Made by a program: the position numbers and the translations under genes
Sequence record: OR515477.1
Origin: Escherichia phage Es2
DNA: 64,000 nucleotides
Reading direction: 5' to 3' (one strand)
In this document: positions 2 to 25,134 of the stretch, piece after piece
How the letters are laid out: each line of letters begins with the position of its first letter
Position numbering within the stretch: the first letter of the stretch is position 1
Notes under the pieces: model-generated
Database searches by the model: none
The model's input: the letters and a program-made list of their open reading frames with translations, nothing else
Told to the model about the DNA's origin: nothing

Positions 2-451
2 ATTAATCTGATGATTAATGGTCCGGGTGGTTATGTTGATACTGCTGCACAGTTATCTAACTTAATTGCTAATTGCCGTGGAACAGTTATAGGGCATCTG
101 ATTGGTCCTAGTGCTTCTGCTTACTGCACAATTTTCCTATCCTGTCATGGGTGGGTAGTACATCCACATGCTACGCTAATGGGGCACACGTTCTCTGGCG
201 GATTCTGTGAGAAGGGTCAAGAAATTAAGAAAGCCTATGAATCTTACAACAAGTTCGTAGAAGATATGATGCTAGATGTCTACTATCCGTTCTTCTCAAT
301 AGACGAAATCGACGAGATGGTAAAAGACAACAAAAATATCTATCTAGATAGCAAAGAAATCCATAAGCGTATTGAAATCTTGGCAAAATATCGATCTGAG
401 CAATATAATAAAGCCCAGTTACCTCAATTAGAGGAGCACAGTGAAGAGTAA
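2..451 (+). CDS. ClpP-like serine protease, 5' end truncated by window edge
   Basis: Reading frame open to window start; INGPGG, GPSASA (active-site Ser), HPH and GGF..KGQEI segments align with the ClpP catalytic core; terminator follows. Confidence 0.5.
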   Translation: MNLMINGPGGYVDTAAQLSNLIANCRGTVIGHLIGPSASAYCTIFLSCHGWVVHPHATLMGHTFSGGFCEKGQEIKKAYESYNKFVEDMMLDVYYPFFSIDEIDEMVKDNKNIYLDSKEIHKRIEILAKYRSEQYNKAQLPQLEEHSEE

Positions 452-460
452 GTAGTTTTA

Positions 461-492
461 AGCCAGGGTTTAACGACCCTGGCTTTTCTTTT
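461..492 (+). terminator. rho-independent terminator
   Basis: Hairpin AGCCAGGGT-ttaacg-ACCCTGGCT followed by TTTCTTTT. Confidence 0.6.
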
Positions 493-554
493 ATCTAAAA
501 TTCTTCTTGACAACGACAAAATTTTATGCTCCAGAAGTGATCTTTAAAAACACA

Positions 555-583
555 TTGTAATTTTCCTCCAAAATTAGTATAAT
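555..583 (+). promoter_or_regulatory. sigma70-type early promoter
   Basis: TTGTAA (555-560), 17 bp spacer, TATAAT (578-583), AT-rich upstream. Confidence 0.5.
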
Positions 584-607
584 GGTACTGGTTAGAGGAG
601 GTTACAA

Positions 608-1264
608 TTGGAAAAGTTCTTACAATTATTAACGGTACTGCTCCAAGAAGCGAAAGATCCAGCATCGCTTCTTAAACGTCTGCTAACTATCTTAGTTGCT
701 GTCATTATTTTCTTATTTGTTAGTAATACTAGCGAGGTGATGTCATTCTTAAAGACTTTCTCCACGTCTGCGGTTCTACAGGATGTTCAAACTCAAAGGA
801 TAGATAACTTTCCTAATGTAGCTAGAGAAAAAAGCATGGTACTCTTTTCTCAAACGGGTGCGGATGCTGTTTTTGTCGTCAAGTATAAACCCGATGCCAT
901 TAATGATTATTCTAACATTATTGCATGGGAAAGCAATGCGCAATTAGATAGGGCTGACTTGGCCGATAAAGCGGTAAATAAAACGTCTGAGCTATATAGA
1001 CGTCACTTGGAAGGCTTTAACTACGCATCGGATTTAAGTGTAAAAGTAAATAAATACATGGGGTTAGATATACCTGCGTTTAAGAACGTTACTTTTAATT
1101 ACATATACACTTGTCCATATTTCAATCTAAACAATATCTATGCTGGATATATTGGTATTGCTTGGAAAGATAATCCTGTAGATGCAGCCGATTCTGAGAA
1201 ATTTAACGAGTATTTAACAAAGCTCTGTTCCCCACAACAGAGATCTTTAGGTAGATCAATATGA
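608..1264 (+). CDS. holin, T4 gpt-like (single N-terminal TM, large periplasmic domain)
   Basis: 218 aa; TM segment LLTILVAVIIFLFV; C-terminal CPYFNLNNIYAG matches the T4 holin T motif CPYFNLDNIYAG as recalled; TTG start; directly upstream of endolysin. Confidence 0.55.
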   Translation: MEKFLQLLTVLLQEAKDPASLLKRLLTILVAVIIFLFVSNTSEVMSFLKTFSTSAVLQDVQTQRIDNFPNVAREKSMVLFSQTGADAVFVVKYKPDAINDYSNIIAWESNAQLDRADLADKAVNKTSELYRRHLEGFNYASDLSVKVNKYMGLDIPAFKNVTFNYIYTCPYFNLNNIYAGYIGIAWKDNPVDAADSEKFNEYLTKLCSPQQRSLGRSI

Positions 1265-1674
1265 GTTTTAAATTTGGTAAAAATAGTGAAAAACAATTAG
1301 CTACCGTTAAGCCAGAGCTACAAAAAGTAGCTCGTAGAGCTTTAGAATTATCTCCATATGATTTCACGATCGTACAGGGTATTCGTACAGTAGCACAAAG
1401 TGCCCAGAATATTGCTAATGGTACTTCATTTTTAAAAGATCCTAGTAAAAGCAAGCATATTACTGGGGATGCCCTTGATTTTGCTCCATATATTAATGGC
1501 AAAATTGATTGGAATGATTTAGAAGCATTTTGGGCAGTTAAAAAGGCTTTTGAACAAGCAGGTAAAGAACTAGGCATTAAACTTCGTTTTGGTGCTGATT
1601 GGAATGCTTCGGGAGACTATCACGATGAAATAAAACGTGGTACCTATGATGGCGGTCATGTCGAACTAGTTTAA
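1261..1674 (+). CDS. endolysin, L-alanyl-D-glutamate peptidase (M15-like zinc peptidase)
   Basis: 137 aa, same length as T5 endolysin (from memory); H-x-x-G-D-A-x-D and D-G-G-H-V-E zinc-ligand motifs. Confidence 0.7.
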   Translation: MSFKFGKNSEKQLATVKPELQKVARRALELSPYDFTIVQGIRTVAQSAQNIANGTSFLKDPSKSKHITGDALDFAPYINGKIDWNDLEAFWAVKKAFEQAGKELGIKLRFGADWNASGDYHDEIKRGTYDGGHVELV

Positions 1675-1685
1675 TTGATAACTGA

Positions 1686-1708
1686 GGCGGGAATATTCCC
1701 GCCTTTTT
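1686..1708 (+). terminator. rho-independent terminator
   Basis: Palindrome GGCGGGAAT/ATTCCCGCC followed by TTTTT. Confidence 0.65.
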
Positions 1709-1751
1709 AGGCAAAGGGGGCTTTAATAATTTTTGAAGATAGGAGAAAGCC

Positions 1752-2168
1752 ATGTTTGCAGAACTATTCACTATGATGCTGCTAGGTATCTGGAAAATAA
1801 GTCTAGTAGTATTCGTTTTAATGATAGTTTTTACTATCCTTGCATTAACTACCCGAAATAGCTTACTAATAAAGGTTATTCACGGACTAGAGTATATAAT
1901 TATGGGTTCATTCGGCGTTTGTAAATGCAATTGCCATAGAGATACGAAATATTGTTGGTTATGGATGGAACTAGAGAATCCTATATCCATAGCTTTGGCT
2001 GTTTCATTCGGCATGATTCTTATGGCCCTTACTCTAGCATTAATTCCTTTGATGTTAGCTGGGGGAGTTACAGCGTATTTCACCCTTTTCTCCCCGATAC
2101 TTATGTACTCAATTTACCCAATAACTATGTATCTAGTTAGGAAAAGATTTATACATGCAGTAGATTAA
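1752..2168 (+). CDS. multi-pass membrane protein, unknown function
   Basis: 138 aa with three to four hydrophobic segments; RBS AGGAGA upstream. Confidence 0.4.
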   Translation: MFAELFTMMLLGIWKISLVVFVLMIVFTILALTTRNSLLIKVIHGLEYIIMGSFGVCKCNCHRDTKYCWLWMELENPISIALAVSFGMILMALTLALIPLMLAGGVTAYFTLFSPILMYSIYPITMYLVRKRFIHAVD

Positions 2169-2181
2169 GATAAAAAAGTAG

Positions 2182-2210
2182 TTGACTTTTAGCCCTAGTT
2201 ATTATATAAT
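2182..2210 (+). promoter_or_regulatory. sigma70-type early promoter
   Basis: TTGACT, 17 bp spacer, TATAAT. Confidence 0.6.
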
Positions 2211-2243
2211 ATATACATAAATTAGTTAAGAGAGGTATATATT

Positions 2244-2675
2244 ATGTCTGATCGTTTCTATACTCAAATGGCGGAACATTTTCGTATACCACATTACGAG
2301 CTAAACATTGCACTCCGTGATCATGACTCTCCTGAGTACAAAAAGCTCGAAAAGAAAGCGGAAAAATCTATTGATACAAAGGTAGGTGCATCTATGTCTA
2401 AGGGCAAAAAGTTAACTCGTCTTGATCTTAATAAAATTTTAACTGAACTTTTGGGTACTGATATTGAAGGTGCTAAATTACCGCTTCTTGTACTAGAGAC
2501 TATGATTAAAAAGGTCAAAAATAAAGAGTATAAAAAGGTAGAAGTCCCAGAAGGCAGATTAAAGGCTCCTTATCAGGAAGCATTAACCGAGTGTTTGGGT
2601 GTAAATCTTGATCTGAGCACCGCAACCGTAAAAACTATGAAAAACTTCTTAGAGGCCATTAATAACTATGAGTAA
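2244..2675 (+). CDS. hypothetical early protein
   Basis: 143 aa ORF with RBS AGAGAGG; no recognisable motif. Confidence 0.45.
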   Translation: MSDRFYTQMAEHFRIPHYELNIALRDHDSPEYKKLEKKAEKSIDTKVGASMSKGKKLTRLDLNKILTELLGTDIEGAKLPLLVLETMIKKVKNKEYKKVEVPEGRLKAPYQEALTECLGVNLDLSTATVKTMKNFLEAINNYE

Positions 2676-2958
2676 ATTAGTATATCTATTGAAAGGTTCT
2701 ACTTGCAACCCTTGCAAAATGTTTGAGCCAGTATTTGATAAAGTAGTCAATGAATATAATTTGGAAGTCCATAAAGAGACTGATAATACAGAATTAATGC
2801 AGAAATTTGGCGTACGCCAAGTTCCTGTAGTAGTTCTGGCAGATCGCTTACCTAATGGTCGAGTAGAAGCTAATCATATTTTGATTGGACGTCAGCTTCG
2901 TAAAGAAACTATGCACGAAGCTATTAAAAATTTCCTGGATGATAATCCAGAGGATTAA
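2668..2958 (+). CDS. thioredoxin/glutaredoxin-like protein
   Basis: 96 aa; C-N-P-C redox-type motif near N-terminus after a beta-strand-like LVYLLKGS. Confidence 0.4.
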   Translation: MSKLVYLLKGSTCNPCKMFEPVFDKVVNEYNLEVHKETDNTELMQKFGVRQVPVVVLADRLPNGRVEANHILIGRQLRKETMHEAIKNFLDDNPED

Positions 2959-2965
2959 TAAACCA

Positions 2966-2997
2966 AGCCTGATCTTAGCGGATCAGGCTTTTATTTT
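2966..2997 (+). terminator. rho-independent terminator
   Basis: AGCCTGATC-ttagc-GATCAGGCT followed by TTTATTTT. Confidence 0.65.
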
Positions 2998-2999
2998 AC

Positions 3000-3028
3000 T
3001 TGCTTTCAGCTAAAAATTTTGGTATAAT
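3000..3028 (+). promoter_or_regulatory. sigma70-type early promoter
   Basis: TTGCTT, 17 bp spacer, TATAAT. Confidence 0.55.
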
Positions 3029-3055
3029 ACTTATATAAATTGATTGGAGGATTAA

Positions 3056-3301
3056 ATGTTAGCGGAACAAGCAAAACGTTTAGCTAGGATAAATAGAGCT
3101 GCTCTTCTCAAGAGCAGAAAGAAGCCGTATAGATACGTTAAAAGACGGATTCTAGCTTCTGTAGAGGCTGGGGGTTCTTTTATACAATTTAATCGTGATG
3201 AAATTAGTTATGAAGCTATAAAAGCCCTCTATAAAGATGGTTATACTCTAAAACTATCAAATAATTATGGTACAACTATTTTAAATGTTATTTGGGAATA
3301 A
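3056..3301 (+). CDS. hypothetical early protein
   Basis: 81 aa ORF with RBS GGAGGA. Confidence 0.4.
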   Translation: MLAEQAKRLARINRAALLKSRKKPYRYVKRRILASVEAGGSFIQFNRDEISYEAIKALYKDGYTLKLSNNYGTTILNVIWE

Positions 3302-4167
3302 TTATGAAAAAAGAATTTAATGTACATAAAACACTAGTAGTACCTGATGATGTTAACTTATTCTTTGTTGGTGATATTCATGGATGCAACGATTTACTAG
3401 AAGATGCACTACAATTAGCTGGATATAACGGCAAGAAAGATTGCGTTGTATGCGTGGGAGATTTAATTGATCGAGGCACGCAGAACCTACAAGTTTTAGC
3501 TAAATTCCTGTATAATCCACGCTTTATCAGTGTCCGTGGTAATCATGACCAATTTATGATTGTGGGAGATTGGGCTAACTGGATGTATAACGGTGGTATG
3601 TGGGCTATGAATGAACTAGATGCAGATACCATTAAAAATATTGCCGAAGACATGGCTGAAAAAATGCCAGTATTCCTAACTGTTAAACATCGCGGCAAGA
3701 AGTATGGTGTTGTTCATGGTGGTGTACCTTTTACATACAAAGAATGTGGTAATGAAGTAGAAACCCCAGTATGGGATAATCTTATTGCACAAGTAGAAGC
3801 AGCTAAGGAAGACCCACACGACCATCCTGGATACCATGTTGAGCCATACTTATGGGATCGAGATGTAATCCAAGAAATAGGTTTTCACTTAGCTAAAAAT
3901 GGTGAAGAACACTCATATTTCCAGCGTTATGCAGGGTTTAAAGAGAAATACATGGTAGAAGTACCTCCAGTTAATGGGGTAGACTTTGTATTTCATGGAC
4001 ATACCGGAGTACCTTACCCGATTTTATACCAGAACCGTGTTTATCTTGATACTGGCGGTGTTTTCAACGGGCAGTTGACGGTTGCGCAAGTTAATGATGA
4101 AACTGGGAAAATCACAACATTTACCACGCTTCGAGAAGATAGCTGTGGTGTACAGAGGATTCTTTAA
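3292..4167 (+). CDS. serine/threonine protein phosphatase (calcineurin-like metallophosphatase)
   Basis: 291 aa; GDIHG, GDLIDRG and GNHD metallophosphatase motifs. Confidence 0.7.
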   Translation: MGIIMKKEFNVHKTLVVPDDVNLFFVGDIHGCNDLLEDALQLAGYNGKKDCVVCVGDLIDRGTQNLQVLAKFLYNPRFISVRGNHDQFMIVGDWANWMYNGGMWAMNELDADTIKNIAEDMAEKMPVFLTVKHRGKKYGVVHGGVPFTYKECGNEVETPVWDNLIAQVEAAKEDPHDHPGYHVEPYLWDRDVIQEIGFHLAKNGEEHSYFQRYAGFKEKYMVEVPPVNGVDFVFHGHTGVPYPILYQNRVYLDTGGVFNGQLTVAQVNDETGKITTFTTLREDSCGVQRIL

Positions 4168-15841: not shown

Positions 15842-16360
15842 ATGCCTAAATATAAACATATAGATTATGACCTTTTTAATAGTTACTTTTATTATGATGA
15901 AACATCGTTATCATTTTTACGCTGGCGAGAAGATCATGCCATCGCTGGTGGTTTAAATGGTAATTATTGGCAAGTTGAATTATTAGATAAAGGACAATTC
16001 AAAGTACATAGAATTATTTTTTGTATAATGAATGGTGGTATAGATAGCGAGCTAATGATTGATCATATTGATCGTAACCCCCGTAATAATAACATTTGGA
16101 ATCTTCGCGCGGTTGATAGTTCCCAGAATAACTATAATAAGACTCCTAGTGAGTATGAAAACTATAAGCGTGCTAATGGTATCCCTAGAAACATTTACGT
16201 TAATAAAATTCGCCCCCGTGATAGTTTCGGGCGTGATTATTTAACTGCTCAAATTAAGAATCCTATTACTAACAAGCGTGTTAGTAAGTCTGGTTATGAT
16301 TTACAAGAGTTATTATTATGGCTTGAAGCTAAAAAAGCTGAATTCGGAATTGTCAATTAA
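15842..16360 (+). CDS. HNH homing endonuclease (HNH_3-type)
   Basis: IDHIDRNPRNNNIWNLR motif; sits in an AT-rich islet within the higher-GC region. Confidence 0.6.
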   Translation: MPKYKHIDYDLFNSYFYYDETSLSFLRWREDHAIAGGLNGNYWQVELLDKGQFKVHRIIFCIMNGGIDSELMIDHIDRNPRNNNIWNLRAVDSSQNNYNKTPSEYENYKRANGIPRNIYVNKIRPRDSFGRDYLTAQIKNPITNKRVSKSGYDLQELLLWLEAKKAEFGIVN

Positions 16361-17656: not shown

Positions 17657-18064
17657 ATGACTAACGCAAAAACCGCAAAATTCGCATGGAATGAAGAAAA
17701 CACCCAAAAAGCTGTTACCATGTACCAGCAGTTAATCAACGAAAACGGTTTAGATTTCGCAAATAGTGACGGGCTGAAAGAGATTGCAAAAGCAGTAGGC
17801 GCGGCTTCTCCCGTATCCGTTCGCTCAAAATTGACCAGTGCAAAAGCCTACCAGAAAAGCGATAAGCCGCGTAAAGTTGGCGGCGGCAGTTCTGTACGCA
17901 AAGCGCATTATGTGCGTGTTATTGCTAAACATGCCATTGATTCCGGCATTATCAAAGACGCTGACGATCTGGCATCACTGGAAAGTGCAAAACTTGAAAC
18001 GCTGGACGCGGTAGCGCAATTGCTAGGCGTTGCCGATGAAGTGAAACAAGCCGCAGGCGAATAA
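17657..18064 (+). CDS. pre-early-type hypothetical protein (135 aa)
   Basis: AATCCCTTAAAT leader plus GGAG SD. Confidence 0.45.
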   Translation: MTNAKTAKFAWNEENTQKAVTMYQQLINENGLDFANSDGLKEIAKAVGAASPVSVRSKLTSAKAYQKSDKPRKVGGGSSVRKAHYVRVIAKHAIDSGIIKDADDLASLESAKLETLDAVAQLLGVADEVKQAAGE

Positions 18065-18153
18065 TAGTTATACATTGCCCTTCCTAGTGGGAGGGCAATA
18101 ATATAACTGTTTAGCGATAGTTATTTTCTTCCCTTAAATCAGGAGTTTTAAAA

Positions 18154-18351
18154 ATGATTTTCTTTCCTACTGAATCATTAATTTTAGGCTTGTTTATTAT
18201 GGCGGCCTCATTATTGTTCGCTTATTTTCAAAATGATTTAGATTCATATTATTTTAAACGTAAATCTAAGTTAGCAAAGCGTTTAGGTCTGATTTGTTTT
18301 ATTGCCGCCGTTGCTTGTGGTGTTAGTTCTAGCCTTATGCCTTTAAATTAA
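18154..18351 (+). CDS. small membrane protein (65 aa)
   Basis: TCCCTTAAAT leader; two hydrophobic segments. Confidence 0.4.
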   Translation: MIFFPTESLILGLFIMAASLLFAYFQNDLDSYYFKRKSKLAKRLGLICFIAAVACGVSSSLMPLN

Positions 18352-18447
18352 TGTTGCAAATTATAACGCCTATTATTCAAGGCGTTATATTTGGCAATAT
18401 TTGCCAATAACAAACGTTTTTTAATCCCTTTAATGGAGTTTATTACT

Positions 18448-20112
18448 ATGATTATTTCCGCAGAAAAACAAACCGTTATCCTGAAAATGGCCGCTGACTT
18501 TAATTTCTATGGTAAACGTCTGCGCGCCACTAAACTGGAGGTCTGCGACGATATATCAAAAGCGGTCTACGATACAACAAAACACTCGACCGCCATTTGT
18601 GATTGGCTGGAAGCAAATAAACCAGTTAAACCAAAAGCTGCAAAAGTAGCAAAAGCTATTAAAAACGATGAGCGCCCCGAAGCGGCTGGGATCGTTTCTA
18701 GCACGGTTGAACAGTGGGAAGTAAAACAAGGCAAACGCTTTATTATTACGTCGATTCAGAATAATACTTTCCCGCATAAAAACTTTTTGGCCTCGCTTGA
18801 ACAGTATGCTAAATACATCGGCGCTGATTTGCTTGTTTCTAAGTATATTTATAATAAAAACGGCTTCCAAAATGGTGAAGGTGCGGATGGAATCAAATAT
18901 GATTCCGCGTTCGATAAGTATATTTGCAGCAAAAACGTGTTTTTAAACAACCGCCGTTTTGCTTTCATGGCTGAAATTAACGTTTTGCCTACCGCAGATT
19001 ATCCGCTTTCTGGATTCGCTGAAACTGCAACGGCGCTTAATCTTGAAGGTCTGGCAATTGGTCACGCTAAAATCACCGCCGAAAGCGTGCCAGCTTTAAA
19101 AGGTGAAGTAGTACGCCGCATGTACTCAACCGGAACGGCAACGCTAAAAAACTACATTCAGCAGAAAGCAGGGCAAAAAGCGGAAGCGCTGCATAACTTC
19201 GGTGCGCTGATTGTTGAGTTCGACGAAGACGGTGAGTTTTTTGTACGCCAGCTTGAAACAATGGACGAAAGCGGGGTGTTTTATGATCTGAATGTTTGCG
19301 CTACTCCCGCAGGATGCTATGAAACATCGGGGCATGTTTTAGGTTTACAATATGGCGACATCCACGCAGAAAAATTAGATGATGATTGTGCCGTTGCGTC
19401 ATGGGCTGGCGAAAATAGCTTGCTTGATATTCTTAAACCAAAATATCAGTTTATCCATGACGTTCACGATTTTACATCTCGCAATCATCATAATCGTGCG
19501 TCCGGTGTATTCCTAGCGAAACAGTACGCCGCCGGACGTGATAAAGTTCTGGATGATCTTATCGATACGGGGCGCGTGCTGGAATCAATGGAACGTGATT
19601 TTAGTCAAACGATCATTGTTGAATCGAATCACGATTTGGCGCTATCCCGTTGGCTGGATGATCGTAATGCTAACATTAAAGACGATCCAGCAAACGCCGA
19701 ACTATATCACCGCCTGAATGCTGCAATTTACGCGGCAATCGGTGAACACGACGAAACGTTTAACGTGTTAGATTATGCGCTGCGCAAGGTTGCAGGTTGC
19801 GAGTTTAACGCCATTTTCCTAACAACTGACCAATCATTTAAAATTGCAGGCATCGAGTGTGGCGTACACGGTCACAACGGCATTAACGGAAGCCGTGGCA
19901 ATCCTAAACAGTTTAAGAAATTGGGCAAACTGAACACGGGGCATACGCATACGGCAAGCATTTACGGCGGGGTATACACCGCTGGCGTGGCTGGTAGTCT
20001 GGACATGGGTTACAACGTTGGCGCGTCAAGCTGGACGCAAACGCATTTAATTACCTATGCAAACGGTCAGCGCACTTTGATTGACTTTAAAAACGGTAAA
20101 TTCTTTGCGTAA
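18448..20112 (+). CDS. A1: A1-like pre-early protein with calcineurin-like metallophosphatase motifs
   Basis: 554 aa from the ATG at 18448 (T5 A1 about 556 aa, from memory); GDIH, GHNG and GHTH motifs; AATCCCTTTAAT leader. Confidence 0.55.
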   Translation: MIISAEKQTVILKMAADFNFYGKRLRATKLEVCDDISKAVYDTTKHSTAICDWLEANKPVKPKAAKVAKAIKNDERPEAAGIVSSTVEQWEVKQGKRFIITSIQNNTFPHKNFLASLEQYAKYIGADLLVSKYIYNKNGFQNGEGADGIKYDSAFDKYICSKNVFLNNRRFAFMAEINVLPTADYPLSGFAETATALNLEGLAIGHAKITAESVPALKGEVVRRMYSTGTATLKNYIQQKAGQKAEALHNFGALIVEFDEDGEFFVRQLETMDESGVFYDLNVCATPAGCYETSGHVLGLQYGDIHAEKLDDDCAVASWAGENSLLDILKPKYQFIHDVHDFTSRNHHNRASGVFLAKQYAAGRDKVLDDLIDTGRVLESMERDFSQTIIVESNHDLALSRWLDDRNANIKDDPANAELYHRLNAAIYAAIGEHDETFNVLDYALRKVAGCEFNAIFLTTDQSFKIAGIECGVHGHNGINGSRGNPKQFKKLGKLNTGHTHTASIYGGVYTAGVAGSLDMGYNVGASSWTQTHLITYANGQRTLIDFKNGKFFA

Positions 20113-20166
20113 TTAAATTATTACCCTAGCGGCTTGAAATACAGCCGCTATTATAGGAGTCAAAAA

Positions 20167-20424
20167 ATGAAAGTTACATTACCCAAAACATTAGACGAAA
20201 AAGCGTTTATTTCCCCCGATGAAATGGAATCCGATAAAGTTTACAGCTTCGGGCCTATCCTAGCCGCCAAAACTAATACTGATGGAATTATTACAGTCGA
20301 TTATCGTGATAATGATATTGTTCCCTTTGACGATGATGACGCTTTTTACGAGTGGTTAAGCGATAATAATTTACCCGTAAGTGGTGAATTAACGCCGTAT
20401 CAGATGCAAATCATTATCAAATAA
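20167..20424 (+). CDS. pre-early-type hypothetical acidic protein (85 aa)
   Basis: Start at ATG with RBS GGAG upstream (MKVTLPK). Confidence 0.4.
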   Translation: MKVTLPKTLDEKAFISPDEMESDKVYSFGPILAAKTNTDGIITVDYRDNDIVPFDDDDAFYEWLSDNNLPVSGELTPYQMQIIIK

Positions 20425-20936: not shown

Positions 20937-21671
20937 ATGAGTCAAGTTAAAACGAATATTACCCGCTCTTTCCCGCATATTTCCCGCGTTATGATTTGGG
21001 ATCTGGACGGCACTATCATTAATTCTTTCCATCGTGTAGCGCCTTGTTTTGATAGCGAGGGCAATTTAGATTTAAATAAATATAAAAATGAAGCCTGCAA
21101 ACATCATTTAATAATGCAGGATTCATTATTGCCATTAGTTGAATATATGCGCCAGTGTATGAATGACGCTAACACGTTAAACATTATTTGCACCGCTCGA
21201 CTGATGAGCAAGTCAGATTATTATTTCTTGCGTAAACAAGGATTGCGGGGGCGTGGAAATAGCAATATCCGCGTGTTTTCCCGCGATACCCTGCACAAAT
21301 ACTTTAAAGCTGATAAAGTTAGCGAGATATACCACAGTAAGGACGCAGTTTATAAATCTTATTATTTTGAATTATTTAAACAATTATATCCGAACGCTGA
21401 TTTTACAATGATTGATGATCATAAAGGCGTGTTAGCGGCGGCGGCATCATACGGATTTAAAACGCTGGACGCACAAGCCGTTAACGATATTCTATCAATC
21501 GGTGTTACATTGATTGGTGAAACCTTTATTGATGAATCGCTCGACGATGATAATGATTATCAGTTCCTAGCAGACCGCCTGCAATTATGTTGGGAAGGTA
21601 TGACCGAGGAAGAACGCGCAGAATATAGTTGCAGTCCTCAACAGTACATCGAGAAATTAAAAGTTGCATAA
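20937..21671 (+). CDS. dmp: 5'-deoxyribonucleotidase (HAD superfamily), Dmp-like
   Basis: 244 aa, same length as T5 Dmp (from memory); WDLDGTI HAD motif I; AATCCCTTAAAT leader. Confidence 0.65.
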   Translation: MSQVKTNITRSFPHISRVMIWDLDGTIINSFHRVAPCFDSEGNLDLNKYKNEACKHHLIMQDSLLPLVEYMRQCMNDANTLNIICTARLMSKSDYYFLRKQGLRGRGNSNIRVFSRDTLHKYFKADKVSEIYHSKDAVYKSYYFELFKQLYPNADFTMIDDHKGVLAAAASYGFKTLDAQAVNDILSIGVTLIGETFIDESLDDDNDYQFLADRLQLCWEGMTEEERAEYSCSPQQYIEKLKVA

Positions 21672-21828
21672 TAATTAAAGTTGAAATAGTCACGGTGTGT
21701 AATGATAACATGCCGTGACTATTAGTCTGCTAAGTACCGGGCGGTAATGAGACTCATTCTCATCTGGTGGGCCACTGGACACACCTCCATGTGTAATCTT
21801 ATGAAATTTGGCAAAAAGGTAATTAGCG

Positions 21829-22032
21829 CTATTTACGGACTGACTGCTCAAAGACTTCCCGCCACAGAGGGTCAGTCTTAACTAGATTATTAATATGCTC
21901 AATAGCTTCATCAAATCTCATGAATCCTTCCGGGATTTCCGAAGACTTAGGAAAAACTTGCAGCATCTCCTGTGTGATACCCATCTTTTCAAGATCTTCT
22001 TGGGTTAACTTAAACTGTCCGAATTCTTTCAT
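21829..22032 (-). CDS. hypothetical protein (67 aa)
   Basis: ORF with stop/start overlap to upstream gene. Confidence 0.4.
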   Translation of the reverse strand: MKEFGQFKLTQEDLEKMGITQEMLQVFPKSSEIPEGFMRFDEAIEHINNLVKTDPLWREVFEQSVRK

Positions 22033-22274
22033 GAACTTCTCCTGTCTACCGGCTTATCTCCAGATTCTGACATACGAAATCTCTTTCGTGACGCCCGAGA
22101 ACCGTCCGCCCACTCCCTCTCAAACTCCGCACGTTTCTTCGCAAACCTCCGCTCTCTTTCCGCAATCTCCCGCGACACTTCCGCAATATATTTACGATGC
22201 GTATTAATAGCCGCAGTCATTCCGAAAACTCCCGCGATTACCCCGATAATAAAAGCAATTACAATACTAAACAT
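22029..22274 (-). CDS. small N-terminal-TM protein with charged C-terminus (81 aa)
   Basis: MFSIVIAFIIGVIAGVFG TM then Arg/Glu-rich helix. Confidence 0.4.
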   Translation of the reverse strand: MFSIVIAFIIGVIAGVFGMTAAINTHRKYIAEVSREIAERERRFAKKRAEFEREWADGSRASRKRFRMSESGDKPVDRRSS

Positions 22275-22461
22275 CTAGTTCTCTCTCAATTTGCAGAATA
22301 CGAGTGCTATCACAACGTTGCAATTCTACTAATTTTTCTATAGCAAATTGTTGTTGTTTTACCTGGGCCTCTAGAGTTTTTAGGCGAACGTACACGGTGT
22401 AAGAAATAATGAAAGCTGACCAAACTGCTAGTACTATTAATATAGCTACTACTTCCATCAT
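22267..22461 (-). CDS. small N-terminal-TM coiled-coil protein (64 aa), paralog family
   Basis: MMEVVAILIVLAVW TM; overlapping start/stop with neighbours. Confidence 0.4.
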   Translation of the reverse strand: MMEVVAILIVLAVWSAFIISYTVYVRLKTLEAQVKQQQFAIEKLVELQRCDSTRILQIERELDV

Positions 22462-22565
22462 TTACGTTTCTCCAGTAACAGAGTTTCAATTCTAGCTAAG
22501 TGGTTATCTAAAATACATTGCCCGATAATCACAATCCCTAGTAGTGCAATAATTACCCATTCCAT
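22458..22565 (-). CDS. small N-terminal-TM peptide (35 aa), paralog family, not in ORF track
   Basis: MEWVIIALLGIVIIG...RIETLLLEKRK, similar to the N-terminus of the next ORF. Confidence 0.3.
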   Translation of the reverse strand: MEWVIIALLGIVIIGQCILDNHLARIETLLLEKRK

Positions 22566-22720
22566 TGTTTACGCTCCTCTAATAAAATTTCAATCCTAGA
22601 TAATCTGTTACTCAACTGCATTAATTTAGCTTCTACTTGTGTTATAGAGGTATCTATTACACGTAAGCCTACAAAGAGAAGTATCAGTAAGATGAATATG
22701 CCAATAATTACCCATTCCAT
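22553..22720 (-). CDS. small N-terminal-TM coiled-coil protein (55 aa), paralog family
   Basis: Start set at MEWVIIGIFILLILLF; RIEILLEERK C-terminus. Confidence 0.35.
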   Translation of the reverse strand: MEWVIIGIFILLILLFVGLRVIDTSITQVEAKLMQLSNRLSRIEILLEERKQWNG

Positions 22721-22848
22721 TAAATCCACCCCGCCATAGCTGCTAACCAAAAACCTACGAAAATAAAGAATAGGATAGTTCCGAACCCAAAACTATTTAT
22801 CCAGCTATCATATACCTCTCCACGTCTGCTCTTTCTTTTGTTTGACAT
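22720..22848 (-). CDS. small C-terminal-TM peptide (42 aa)
   Basis: Start set at the ATG with GGAG 8 nt upstream (MSNKRKSRR...); basic N-terminus then hydrophobic tail. Confidence 0.3.
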   Translation of the reverse strand: MSNKRKSRRGEVYDSWINSFGFGTILFFIFVGFWLAAMAGWI

Positions 22849-23024
22849 ATCTTTCATGCTCCTATAAATGTGATTTTTGAAATATTCTATAATTTGTGCA
22901 CAACCGACCATGCCTGTGAACTCATAGAAGGACTTCTACTTTTCTTACATAGTGGTTTCTGCCAATATACCATCCAAGAAATAAAAAATTTAGTTTACTT
23001 GGATGTCTTTTTGTTTTATACTAA

Positions 23025-23291
23025 TTACAGGTAATTAGATTGCTCTAGTTTAAATTTACAATCACCGTATTTAAGGTCAAACTGACTGAGATCCCACCAC
23101 CCAAACTTAGTACGGAGCTGTACTACTGGAAAGCGATCTCCCTTAATACGAACTTTTTGAACCTTGAGGCCGTAATGTTCCTCTCCAGCACCACCAAAAG
23201 ATTTTACAAACCCCGTACAAAATGGTTTGGGGGCAGGTGCACAACCAGATAACATAACTGCGGCAACTAGTGCAATCACAAACTTTTTCAT
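23025..23291 (-). CDS. llp: lipoprotein, Llp-like (receptor-blocking lipoprotein)
   Basis: Signal peptide with lipobox LSGC; divergently transcribed from the adjacent RBP gene as in the T5 llp/oad pair. Confidence 0.55.
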   Translation of the reverse strand: MKKFVIALVAAVMLSGCAPAPKPFCTGFVKSFGGAGEEHYGLKVQKVRIKGDRFPVVQLRTKFGWWDLSQFDLKYGDCKFKLEQSNYL

Positions 23292-23376
23292 ATTTATCTC
23301 TCCATTTCTAATTTATGAATCTATTATAGCAAAATAGAGAGATGAAAGCAAATACATTTTTATAATAGGAGATTAT
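23292..23376. promoter_or_regulatory. divergent promoter region for llp and RBP genes
   Basis: AT-rich 85 bp with TATAAT-like hexamers on both strands and SD sequences for both genes. Confidence 0.35.
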
Positions 23377-25134
23377 ATGGGTTTTTTCGCTGGAAAATAT
23401 AGCGATGGTAAGACCGTACTATCTTTAAATACTGAATCTGGTGGTGACATTAATCGTCACTATAGCCCAAATGCCAATAGTATTTTTCATAGTGATATGC
23501 CATTTGTCCTAGTTGATGGTACTTACGAGGCTGGGTTAGGTAATGCCGGGAATGGGTTTTTTGTATGTCAAATGCCCTCTGACATAATAAATATTAAATC
23601 TAATGACCCGGGTAGAGTTATACTAACTGCTATTGAAATTAATGGTACTCACAGAGCTTTTCTTAATGGTACTCAGAGTAAGGTTGGTCAAACTATAGTT
23701 GCCACTCAGGCAGACCCCTTTAGGTCTTTTGCCAGTGTTTCTCAAACCAGTGGATTTGCATTTGGTAATAGTCTAGCATCTGGCACTTATAACTACAACC
23801 CCTCTCTAGGGCATGAAGAATCTATCTCTAGAAGTGGCACAGGGGGTACTACGTTACATAGTACGTATCATGGTATAGTTAGGCCCGGTGGTGGAGCACC
23901 TGTAGGAGTTACTGTTGCAGAAGCCTTTGCACAATTAGGTTTTCCTACTAATAGTAGCACAGTACCTGTAGATGGTAATAACCCATACTATTGGGATCCT
24001 GGATGGATGGCTCCTCTAGGAGCAGCATATAGGGGGCATGATTGGTTTTATGTTTGCAATTCTAATATACGTGGATATGGTGGGGTTAGGCAAGGGCTCC
24101 CTGGTAATGTAAATACTATGTACCATGATGGTGGTAATAGATTTGTTTGTAGAGGGTCTACTACTAATTTAGCTAACCAGTCGGGTGACTCTACAATACT
24201 ACAGGACTGGTATAATATAACTCCTACTAAGGTTATTTGGTATGTTCTTAATTTAAGGTACTCAAATGGTGGAATGAGTATTTCAGGTAACCCTTTCACT
24301 GGTTCTGATATTCTTATATCTCCTTCTAATTTTATAATTAAAGGGGTAAGTCTCCCTAATACCGGGTATAAATTTATTAATCAGAATGCTTTTGGTAACC
24401 TAGGTTACCGTCCTGATATGGAGTATATAGGGAATAACGCTGCGTATACTGGGGTTTTTGGGGATACCACTGCAAGGTGTGAACTTGTAGGATCTAGTAA
24501 TGGAGGGTTGTGGTCTCCTGTAGATTATGGAGGTGCCAAATCACAGATTAGCATTTACAAATTTGGAGCAGGTAAACAGTGGTATGTAAACTCTAACGAT
24601 AATACTATTGGTAATGAGCATGGGGTTGTTTGGGGACCATCAGCAGTTCCATTACGACTTTTTGGAGGAAATGTAGGTAGCTCTTACATGGGGGATGATA
24701 TTACTCCTAGCTATCCAGGAACTGGGGATAGGTACGTTGGTTTATCAACTATTGGGCTAGGTATACCTGGTGGCAATGCTACAGTAATTCTTACTACTGA
24801 AGTTATATCAGGTAATCTTAACTGTGCAGGTGTCCCAGCTAACACATGGAATAATGGTGTGTTTCAAGTACAAGGAAGAAAAGCGCATAGTTATAGTAAT
24901 GGAGATGCAATATTCCACCAGATTCTAACGCTACCTGTGGGCTATCTAGTACCTTTTCATACTACAGCAGCTTTTAGATACACCCCTAATAATGCTTTAA
25001 GCAGGAATAGTTTTATATATACCGCTAAAAACCTAGGAAATGGAAATGTAGAGTTAGGGGTAGTTATGCATGTCAGTTTAGGTAGTGCAGTTTTCTTACC
25101 TAGACTAAGAGTAACAGTTCAACGCCTTACCTAA
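23377..25134 (+). CDS. receptor-binding tail protein, pb5-like
   Basis: 585 aa, Gly/Asn/Ser/Thr-rich; position between llp and terminase; receptor specificity not determinable. Confidence 0.55.

What the first reader, a model, noticed from the sequence alone, without database searches (positions are those of the whole stretch)
18448..20112. A1-like pre-early protein carries calcineurin-like metallophosphatase motifs
The 554 aa protein at the position and size expected for T5 A1 contains GDIH, GHNG and GHTH signatures of binuclear-metal phosphoesterases. T5 A1 is required for host DNA degradation and second-step DNA transfer, consistent with a nuclease or phosphatase fold. A near-perfect inverted repeat TTGGCAA-tat-TTGCCAA sits upstream at 18393-18409 as a possible operator.
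Basis: partly seen in the sequence, partly recalled or inferred. Interest (0 to 1): 0.4.

Follow-up and report, generated by a model that had tools for sequence, protein, structure and literature searches.

The report
T5 A1 host-DNA-degrading metallophosphoesterase ortholog
This gene is the counterpart (95% identical) of phage T5's A1 protein, the early factor that destroys the host chromosome; it has an intact two-metal phosphoesterase site, which is already in the literature, and the palindrome upstream belongs to a conserved RNA hairpin rather than an operator.

Summary

Three things go beyond the papers I read:
- The family has at least 2,481 clusters, well beyond Demerecviridae, often in replication modules.
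- The palindrome lies at 18391-18407, not 18393-18409. It overlaps a conserved hairpin (18350-18401) with compensatory and G-U changes, and no promoter is nearby, so it looks like an RNA element rather than an operator.

The finding is correct but known, so interest is low.

The parts
18448..20112 (+). A1 ortholog CDS (554 aa plus stop)
   Evidence: 95% aa identity to T5 A1; phrog_1745 'DNA transfer protein' E 4.9e-245
18435..18438 (+). Shine-Dalgarno GGAG, 9 nt before the ATG
   Evidence: conserved in relatives
18448..18627 (+). N-terminal three-helix domain (residues 1-60), putative DNA-binding
   Evidence: helices 5-17, 26-41 and 47-56, with block-mean pLDDT 85-93 over residues 1-60. Distant homologs have Pfam HTH domains (PF13384, PF04218, PF02796) at their N-termini, and their matches to A1 start around residue 70. 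A GcrA-like DNA-binding domain is reported for T5 A1 in 10.1101/2022.08.27.505566.
18628..18702 (+). Lys/Ala-rich flexible linker (residues 61-85)
   Evidence: pLDDT <50 for residues 62-74 and 79-81; variable in length across homologs
18703..19335 (+). Middle domain (residues 86-296): MPE-like fold without Asp/His metal ligands, but with invariant polar residues (Q104, Y135, T182, T228, G229, N235, Y236, H249)
19336..20109 (+). C-terminal catalytic MPE domain (residues 297-554)
19354..19365 (+). MPE motif I, G-D304-I-H306
   Evidence: D304 and H306 are 266/266; they align with SbcD D8/H10
19456..19470 (+). MPE motif II, H-D338-V-H-D341 (D338 is the presumed bridging ligand)
   Evidence: D338 is 266/266; it aligns with SbcD D48
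19624..19635 (+). MPE motif III, S-N394-H395-D
   Evidence: N394 and H395 are 266/266; they align with SbcD N83/H84
19861..19875 (+). MPE motif IV, G-V-H474-G-H476
   Evidence: H474 is 266/266; H476 is 206 H and 59 D. hhalign places SbcD H184 opposite H476, so which histidine is the ligand is unresolved.
19939..19950 (+). MPE motif V, G-H499-T-H501
   Evidence: H501 is 266/266; H499 is 258 H and 8 D. They align with SbcD H222/H224.
18350..18401 (+). Conserved hairpin between the T5.005-like gene and A1: inner stem 18362-18371/18380-18389, outer stem 18350-18357/18394-18401
   Evidence: RNA fold of the 18340-18455 stretch gives -24.4 kcal/mol, z -3.8. The inner stem is 99.3% paired across 15 relatives and 5 of 10 pairs show compensatory changes. 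Loops vary in sequence and length.
18391..18407 (+).
   Evidence: T5 has TTGGCAATATTGCCAA. The core GGCAA/TTGCC is kept in 13 of 15 relatives, the outer pairs are not.
17657..18064 (+). A2 ortholog (DNA-binding protein, A1's partner in T5)
   Evidence: phrog_1725 E 8.3e-52; T5 gene order
18154..18351 (+). T5.005-like small membrane protein gene, immediately upstream of the hairpin
   Evidence: phrog_4820 E 1.2e-32
20937..21671 (+). dmp ortholog (5'-deoxynucleotidase), the downstream step of host-DNA catabolism in T5
   Evidence: same position and size as T5.001; phrog_415 E 4.3e-57

Best explanation
The gene encodes the ortholog of bacteriophage T5 pre-early protein A1.

The protein has four parts:
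- a small N-terminal helical DNA-binding domain (residues 1-60);
- a flexible linker;
- a middle domain (about 90-295) with a metallophosphoesterase-like fold but no metal ligands;
- a C-terminal calcineurin-like metallophosphoesterase (MPE) domain (about 297-554).

In the C-terminal domain, D304, H306, D338, N394, H474, H499 and H501 would hold two divalent metal ions, and H395 would act as the catalytic histidine. The arrangement matches Mre11/SbcD and the PolD DP1 exonuclease.

The most likely mechanism is that A1 is itself a metal-dependent DNase. It would be made from the first-injected 8% of the genome and would hydrolyse host chromosomal DNA. The neighbouring dmp product then dephosphorylates the released dNMPs.

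Basis of each step:
- Shown here by computation: orthology, gene order, motif invariance, predicted fold.
- Shown in the literature for T5: A1 is necessary and sufficient for chromosome degradation in vivo.
- Inferred: direct DNA hydrolysis at this metal site. It has not been shown in vitro.

The upstream palindrome is part of a conserved mRNA hairpin between the T5.005-like gene and A1. It is probably a leaky terminator or an RNA processing/stability element, not an operator.
For: Orthology and context:
- 95% aa identity to T5 A1 over the full length.
- phrog_1745 E 4.9e-245.
- Gene order A2, 005-like, A1, 003-like, 002-like, dmp, as in T5.

Catalytic site:
- Five MPE motifs are present, with ligand residues invariant in 30 and in 266 homologs.
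- All five motifs line up with E. coli SbcD D8/H10, D48, N83/H84, H184 and H222/H224.

Fold:
- The AF2 model has pLDDT 87.8.

Literature:
- HHpred found a C-terminal nuclease domain and a GcrA-like N-terminal DNA-binding domain in T5 A1 (10.1101/2022.08.27.505566).
- A1 is described as a 'predicted metallo-phosphatase', the only pre-early gene needed for host DNA degradation, and sufficient for it when expressed alone in E. coli (10.64898/2026.04.02.716235).

Distant homologs sit among primase, helicase, clamp, RNR and ligase genes, which fits a role in DNA metabolism.

Hairpin.
Against: - No curated HMM recognises the protein: Pfam, NCBIfam and PDB sequence searches give no MPE hit.
- The hhalign comparison with SbcD is weak (probability 37-46%, E about 2e-4 for a single pairwise comparison).
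- The fold assignment rests on a predicted model, not a solved structure.
- No in vitro nuclease activity of purified A1 has been reported in the papers read.
- Many MPE-fold proteins are not nucleases. MJ0936, YfcE and LpxH score as high as the nucleases.
- How phage DNA escapes a non-specific DNase is unexplained.
- For the hairpin, the U-tract is imperfect (4 T in 8) and the terminator scan did not flag it. The reverse strand folds about as well in this one sequence.
Confidence: 0.75

Rival explanations
1. A1 is an active metallophosphoesterase whose substrate is not DNA. It could act on a nucleotide, a cyclic or signalling nucleotide, a phosphoprotein or a lipid precursor. Host DNA degradation would then be indirect, through activation or de-repression of a host nuclease.
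For: [quoted passage not shown]
- No in vitro nuclease activity has been reported.
Against: - A1 alone is sufficient for chromosome degradation in E. coli, while rRNA is spared.
- The protein carries an N-terminal DNA-binding-type domain.
- Homologs lie in DNA replication modules (PMC8541194).
- The best structural match is a proofreading exonuclease.
Confidence: 0.15
2. A1 is a catalytically inert MPE-fold scaffold, like Vps29 or the B subunits of eukaryotic DNA polymerases. It would act only through protein-protein contacts with RNA polymerase, A2 or the membrane.
For: - Vps29 and the Pol alpha, delta and epsilon B subunits are among the top structural matches.
- A1 is reported to bind RNAP and A2.
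- The middle domain does look like an inert MPE fold.
Against: Inert MPE proteins have lost the metal ligands. Here all of them are invariant in the C-terminal domain across 266 homologs, including the catalytic His395. That is hard to explain without catalysis.
Confidence: 0.05
3. A1 is a sequence-specific, restriction-like endonuclease that cuts sites present in host DNA but absent from first-step-transfer DNA. This is Davison's hypothesis.
For: - It would explain why phage FST DNA is spared (10.1101/866236).
- The N-terminal DNA-binding domain could confer specificity.
Against: - No restriction-type nuclease family was detected; the only nuclease-like fold found is MPE.
- By general knowledge of the family, known MPE nucleases are end- or structure-specific rather than sequence-specific.
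- Many homologs lack an equivalent of A1's first ~70 residues or carry a different HTH there.
Confidence: 0.05
4. The palindrome TTGGCAA-N3-TTGCCAA is a DNA operator for a dimeric regulator (for example A2 or A1) that controls A1 expression.
For: - It is a perfect 7-bp inverted repeat found once in the window, against 0.01 expected.
- The core GGCAA/TTGCC is conserved in 13 of 15 relatives, and T5 has a 16-bp perfect palindrome.
- A2 is a dimeric dsDNA-binding protein.
Against: - No promoter-like site overlaps or adjoins it, and T5 annotates no promoter there.
- The outermost pair of the 7-nt arms is unpaired in 5 of 15 relatives, and the arm spacing differs by one nt (spacer TA or TT versus TAT) among close relatives.
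- In the more distant genera (L035, L036) the right arm changes in a G-U-compatible way (GGCAUAU/AUAUGUC, GGCAAUU/AAUUGUC), which preserves RNA pairing but not DNA symmetry.
- The left arm is shared with a longer covarying hairpin.
Confidence: 0.1

Closest known systems
Bacteriophage T5 A1 (T5.004, YP_006832; 'DNA transfer protein')
   Same: 95% aa identity over the full length, the same start context, the same neighbours (A2, T5.005, T5.003, T5.002, dmp) and the same upstream hairpin and palindrome.
   Different: Two residues shorter (554 versus 556 aa). One extra T in the palindrome spacer. His206 here is Ala in T5. Nothing of functional consequence is apparent.
Mre11/SbcD double-strand-break nucleases
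   Different: A1 has no capping domain: it ends where the SbcD nuclease domain ends. There is no adjacent Rad50/SbcC gene. Sequence similarity is undetectable by HMMER. A1 also carries an extra N-terminal DNA-binding domain and a second MPE-like domain in the same chain.
Archaeal PolD small subunit DP1 (3'-5' proofreading exonuclease, PDB 5ihe)
   Different: DP1 works as a subunit of a polymerase. Identity is 14%, and there is no evidence that A1 binds a polymerase.
Vps29 (catalytically inactive MPE-fold scaffold)
   Different: It is a eukaryotic retromer subunit. Identity is 11-13% and Foldseek TM-scores are only 0.35-0.40. A1's middle domain keeps its own invariant polar residues.
A1 homologs in replication modules of non-T5 phages (phiCbK gp126, Shewanella phage KASIA p106)
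   Same: Same two-MPE-domain core at 40-47% identity. They are located among replication and nucleotide-metabolism genes (PMC8541194).
   Different: They lack A1's N-terminal ~70 residues or carry a different HTH. No A2 partner and no two-step injection context are known for them.

Membership tests
T5 A1 orthologous group (phrog_1745) | Full-length sequence similarity to T5 A1 | tested here: met
   95% identity, 554 of 556 residues aligned; phrog_1745 E 4.9e-245, covering residues 8-553
T5 A1 orthologous group (phrog_1745) | Location in the first-step-transfer gene block next to A2 and dmp | tested here: met
   Order A2, 005-like, A1, 003-like, 002-like, dmp, identical to T5 positions 124-4134
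T5 A1 orthologous group (phrog_1745) | Required for host DNA degradation and second-step transfer | not testable with these tools
   Genetic and biochemical property; known for T5 only
Calcineurin-like metallophosphoesterase superfamily (C-terminal domain) | Five-motif signature DxH / GDxxD / GNH[DE] / H / GHxH with conserved metal ligands | tested here: met
   GD304IH306, HD338VHD341, SN394H395D, GVH474GH and GH499TH501 are present. The ligands are invariant in 266 homologs and align with the SbcD motifs. Motif II has H in place of G, and motif III has S in place of G.
Calcineurin-like metallophosphoesterase superfamily (C-terminal domain) | Significant match to a curated family HMM (Pfam Metallophos families, NCBIfam) | tested here: not met
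   0 families at E<=10 for the whole protein and at E<=0.1 for the domain alone. PDB phmmer and hmmsearch give no MPE hit.
Calcineurin-like metallophosphoesterase superfamily (C-terminal domain) | MPE beta-sandwich fold | tested here: met
Calcineurin-like metallophosphoesterase superfamily (C-terminal domain) | Binds two metal ions and hydrolyses phosphoesters | not testable with these tools
   Needs purified protein
Calcineurin-like metallophosphoesterase superfamily (middle domain, residues 86-296) | MPE beta-sandwich fold | tested here: met
Calcineurin-like metallophosphoesterase superfamily (middle domain, residues 86-296) | Asp/His/Asn metal-ligand motifs | tested here: not met
   The loops after the first two strands read TSxQNNT and YNKNGFQN, with no Asp or His. 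His206 is Ala in T5. There is no sequence similarity to the C-terminal domain (hhalign probability 0.2%).
Mre11/SbcD nuclease family | Capping domain following the nuclease domain | tested here: not met
   A1 ends at the residue aligned with about SbcD 270, the end of the nuclease domain
Mre11/SbcD nuclease family | Partner Rad50/SbcC ATPase encoded adjacently | tested here: not met
   The neighbours are A2, small membrane or unknown proteins and dmp
Operator of a sigma-70 promoter (palindrome 18391-18407) | Overlaps or adjoins a promoter | tested here: not met
   No promoter-like site lies between 18253 and 18447 on the + strand. None is annotated at the equivalent place in T5.
Intrinsic (rho-independent) terminator (hairpin 18350-18401) | Stable G+C-containing stem directly followed by a U-tract | tested here: inconclusive
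   The stem is conserved with covariation, but the tail ATATTTGG has only 4 T in 8 and was not flagged. More distant relatives (L035, L043) have a clean T-run after the equivalent hairpin.

The most novel reading that the evidence does not exclude
A1 may be a single-chain pseudo-dimer of two metallophosphoesterase-fold domains, one catalytic (297-554) and one degenerate (about 90-295). The degenerate domain has swapped its Asp/His metal ligands for an invariant Gln/Asn/Thr/Tyr pocket (Q104, N105, T107, Y135, T228, N235, Y236, H249). This architecture would stand in for the obligate homodimer of Mre11/SbcD and let A1 act as a stand-alone DNase without Rad50. The degenerate pocket could provide DNA, RNAP or A2 binding, or substrate discrimination. 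The retron-Ec67 escape mutation V214M falls in this domain. None of the papers I read describes this second domain.
Probability: 0.35. Interest if true: 0.5.

Novelty: already known. Interest (0 to 1): 0.25.

Why it matters
How T5 destroys the host chromosome within minutes while sparing its own DNA is a long-standing question. An intact two-metal site in A1 makes it directly testable through point mutants and Mn2+/Mg2+ nuclease assays. That idea is already in the literature and is being pursued for T5 itself, and this window only adds another 95%-identical ortholog.

The modest added value is threefold:
- an exact ligand map (D304, H306, D338, N394, H395, H474, H499, H501) that is invariant across a very large family;
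- a second, degenerate MPE-like domain;
- the observation that this two-domain core is widespread in phages outside Demerecviridae, within replication modules. This suggests a general phage DNase rather than a T5-specific 'DNA transfer protein'.

Tried and rejected
- Pfam on the whole protein at E<=10, and on the N-terminal 71 aa and the C-terminal domain at E<=0.1: no hits.
- NCBIfam on the whole protein and on both domains at E<=10: no hits.
- PDB phmmer and profile hmmsearch: only chance hits. The 3-dehydroquinate dehydratase hit (E 0.0029) rests on a short 'SNH[DE]xAL' coincidence over 64 residues and was rejected.
- Global hhalign against SbcD failed. Only the local, low-stringency mode aligned all the motifs.
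- hhalign of the middle versus the C-terminal domain: probability 0.2%, so there is no sequence evidence for an internal duplication.
- Rfam on 18000-18500: only sub-threshold chance matches, 17 bits against gathering scores of 53 and 298.
- Promoter and terminator scan: counts near the shuffled expectation, and nothing at the palindrome.
- Folding the reverse strand gave a similar energy. Strand assignment of the hairpin therefore rests on G-U pairs in relatives and on the direction of transcription, not on energy.
- The in-frame TTG at 18391 was rejected as a start codon. It has no SD, lies inside the palindrome, and T5 and all relatives start at the ATG.

Full report
**Observation.** The window has an ATG at 18448, preceded by GGAG at 18435-18438, which opens a 554-codon frame ending at 20112. 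The mechanical ORF list extends it to an in-frame TTG at 18391. That codon lies inside the upstream palindrome and has no ribosome-binding site, and T5 and every relative start at the ATG. The inverted repeat is real and perfect (TTGGCAA-TAT-TTGCCAA) but lies at 18391-18407, two bases left of the coordinates given. It occurs once in the window against 0.01 expected.

**Identity.** The protein is 95% identical over its whole length to T5 A1. It matches PHROG 1745 ('DNA transfer protein') at E 4.9e-245. The DNA is 91-93% identical to many T5-like Escherichia and Salmonella phages and up to 98% identical at protein level to IMG/VR genomes. The neighbours reproduce T5's first-step-transfer block:
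- A2 (17657-18064)
- T5.005-like membrane protein (18154-18351)
- A1
- T5.003-like and T5.002-like genes
- dmp (20937-21671)

The window is in the reverse orientation relative to the T5 reference record.

**Is it a metallophosphoesterase?**

*Sequence profiles say nothing.* Pfam gives no family even at E<=10, for the whole protein or for the C-terminal domain alone. NCBIfam gives none. Neither the single sequence nor a 30-sequence profile finds an MPE among PDB sequences. Three other lines of evidence do support the assignment.

*1. Motif conservation.* An alignment of 30 homologs down to 41% identity shows a complete five-motif set: G-D304-x-H306, H-D338-x-x-D341, S-N394-H395-D396, G-x-H474-G-H476 and G-H499-x-H501. 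In a 266-sequence alignment that includes 145 representatives of 50%-identity clusters, D304, H306, D338, N394, H395, H474 and H501 are 266/266, and H499 is 258 His and 8 Asp. Within its 'GHNG', the invariant residue is the preceding H474.

*2. Alignment with SbcD.* A low-stringency profile-sequence alignment with E. coli SbcD puts every motif opposite its SbcD counterpart (D8/H10, D48, N83/H84, H184, H222/H224). The score is weak: E about 2e-4 for the single comparison, probability 37-46%.

**What is already known.**
- Stokar-Avihail et al. (bioRxiv 10.1101/2022.08.27.505566) reported an HHpred-detected C-terminal nuclease domain and a GcrA-like N-terminal DNA-binding domain in T5 A1. Retron Ec67 escape mutations map at A15T, C33R, I36T and S47P, plus V214M.
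- Annor et al. [quoted passage not shown] They note that in vitro nuclease activity remains to be tested and that an indirect route through a host nuclease is still possible.
- Other recent papers simply refer to it as the a1 nuclease.

**Mechanism.** I consider the most likely mechanism to be direct, metal-dependent hydrolysis of host DNA at the C-terminal binuclear site. The N-terminal helical domain would contribute DNA binding, and dmp would dephosphorylate the released nucleotides. The steps rest on different kinds of evidence:
- Shown here by computation: orthology, gene order, ligand invariance, predicted fold.
- Shown by others for T5: in vivo necessity and sufficiency.
- Inferred: catalysis on DNA.

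Rivals:
- *An active phosphoesterase with a non-DNA substrate that triggers a host nuclease.* This cannot be excluded, because small-molecule phosphodiesterases match as well as the nucleases do.
- *An inert scaffold.* This is unlikely given the perfectly conserved ligands.
- *Davison's restriction-enzyme idea.* This has no support from the fold.

**Beyond the papers read.**

*A second MPE-like domain.* Residues about 86-296, modelled on their own (pLDDT 86.1), also have an MPE-like fold:
- Foldseek independently ranks Vps29 first (E 1.9e-5), although TM-scores are only 0.35-0.40.
- This domain has no Asp/His ligands. The loops after its first two strands read TSxQNNT and YNKNGFQN, and it still carries near-invariant polar residues: Q104, Y135, T182, T228, G229, N235, Y236 and H249.
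- There is no detectable sequence similarity between the two halves, so homology as opposed to fold convergence is not established.

A1 thus looks like a DNA-binding head followed by a degenerate MPE-like domain and a catalytic MPE domain. It could be a single-chain stand-in for the Mre11/SbcD dimer, but that is speculation.

*A much wider family.* A profile search of 1.84 billion representatives finds 2,481 clusters at E<=1e-3 and 1,629 at <=1e-30, nearly all covering both MPE-like domains. IMG/VR holds at least 531 loci. Members at 40-47% identity lack the first ~70 residues or carry other HTH domains. In two contigs of 41-45 kb that I examined, they lie among primase, DnaB helicase, clamp, RNR and ligase genes, directly after a ClpP/HslV-like peptidase gene. 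This matches the reports for phiCbK and KASIA.

**The palindrome.**
- No sigma-70-like promoter lies near it, and none is annotated at the equivalent site in T5.
- Its left arm forms the 3' side of a longer hairpin (18350-18401) that starts at the stop codon of the T5.005-like gene. The RNA fold of the 18340-18455 stretch is -24.4 kcal/mol, z -3.8.
- Across 15 relatives, the 10-bp inner stem is 99.3% paired. Five pairs show compensatory changes (for example AUAACGCC/GGCGUUAU becoming AUAGCCC/GGGCUAU) and several are U-G pairs, while loop sequence and length vary freely.
In two distant genera the right arm changes in a G-U-compatible way.
- More distant Demerecviridae have a classical hairpin-plus-T-run at the same place.

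The best reading is an mRNA hairpin, acting as a leaky terminator or a processing/stability element ahead of a toxic gene, rather than an operator. The evidence for function is indirect: the U-tract here is imperfect, and the opposite strand folds equally well in this single sequence.

**Verdict.** The feature is an already known protein with an already published functional prediction. Interest is low (0.25). The tandem MPE-fold architecture is the one point that might merit follow-up.

Noticed in passing
window 18350-18401: A conserved hairpin lies directly after the stop of the T5.005-like gene and about 45 nt before the A1 start. The inner stem covaries across T5-like genera and the loop varies freely. 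It may be a leaky terminator or an RNA processing element ahead of a toxic nuclease gene.
   Followed up: yes
window 18703-19335 (A1 residues 86-296): The middle part of A1 is a second metallophosphoesterase-like domain that lacks the metal ligands but has its own invariant polar residues. The papers I read do not describe it. The published retron Ec67 escape mutation V214M of T5 A1 falls in this domain.
   Followed up: partly
L072 3845-5428; L055 3824-5491; L053 3839-5434: A1 homologs (40-47% identity) occur in 41-70 kb non-T5 phage contigs. In L072 and L055, whose neighbours I scanned, they sit inside replication and nucleotide-metabolism modules (PhoH, clamp, RNR; primase, DnaB, ligase) and directly downstream of a ClpP- or HslV-like peptidase gene. 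The recurring peptidase-A1 pairing is unexplained. L053's neighbours were not scanned.
   Followed up: partly
window 21672-25134: Right after dmp (the left-most T5 gene) come small minus-strand ORFs, a Cor/Llp-like lipoprotein (23025-23291, -) and a pb5-like receptor-binding protein (23377-25134, +). These are genes from the far end of the unique region. The window therefore spans a terminal-repeat boundary or a collapsed or permuted assembly junction.
   Followed up: partly
window 15842-16360: An HNH endonuclease (Pfam HNH_3, E 1.4e-12) lies at the position of T5 hegG. The 2026 preprint finds hegG in fewer than 15% of Demerecviridae genomes.
   Followed up: no
window 20134-20424: The listed TTG start of the T5.003-like ORF is probably wrong. 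The PHROG match begins at residue 12, where an ATG at 20167 follows AGGAG.
   Followed up: no
public records MT577844.1 / NC_104259.1 (H19/H20): In Salmonella phage LmqsSP1 a 'baseplate wedge protein' is among the features annotated under the A1 match, an evident misannotation if it labels the A1 gene. Several other records call A1 only 'hypothetical protein'. Separately, dmp matches a PHROG labelled 'polynucleotide kinase'.
   Followed up: no
window 18448-20109, residue 206: His206, at the motif-IV-like position of the middle domain, is His in 250 of 266 homologs but Ala in T5 itself. It is therefore not essential for A1 function.
   Followed up: partly
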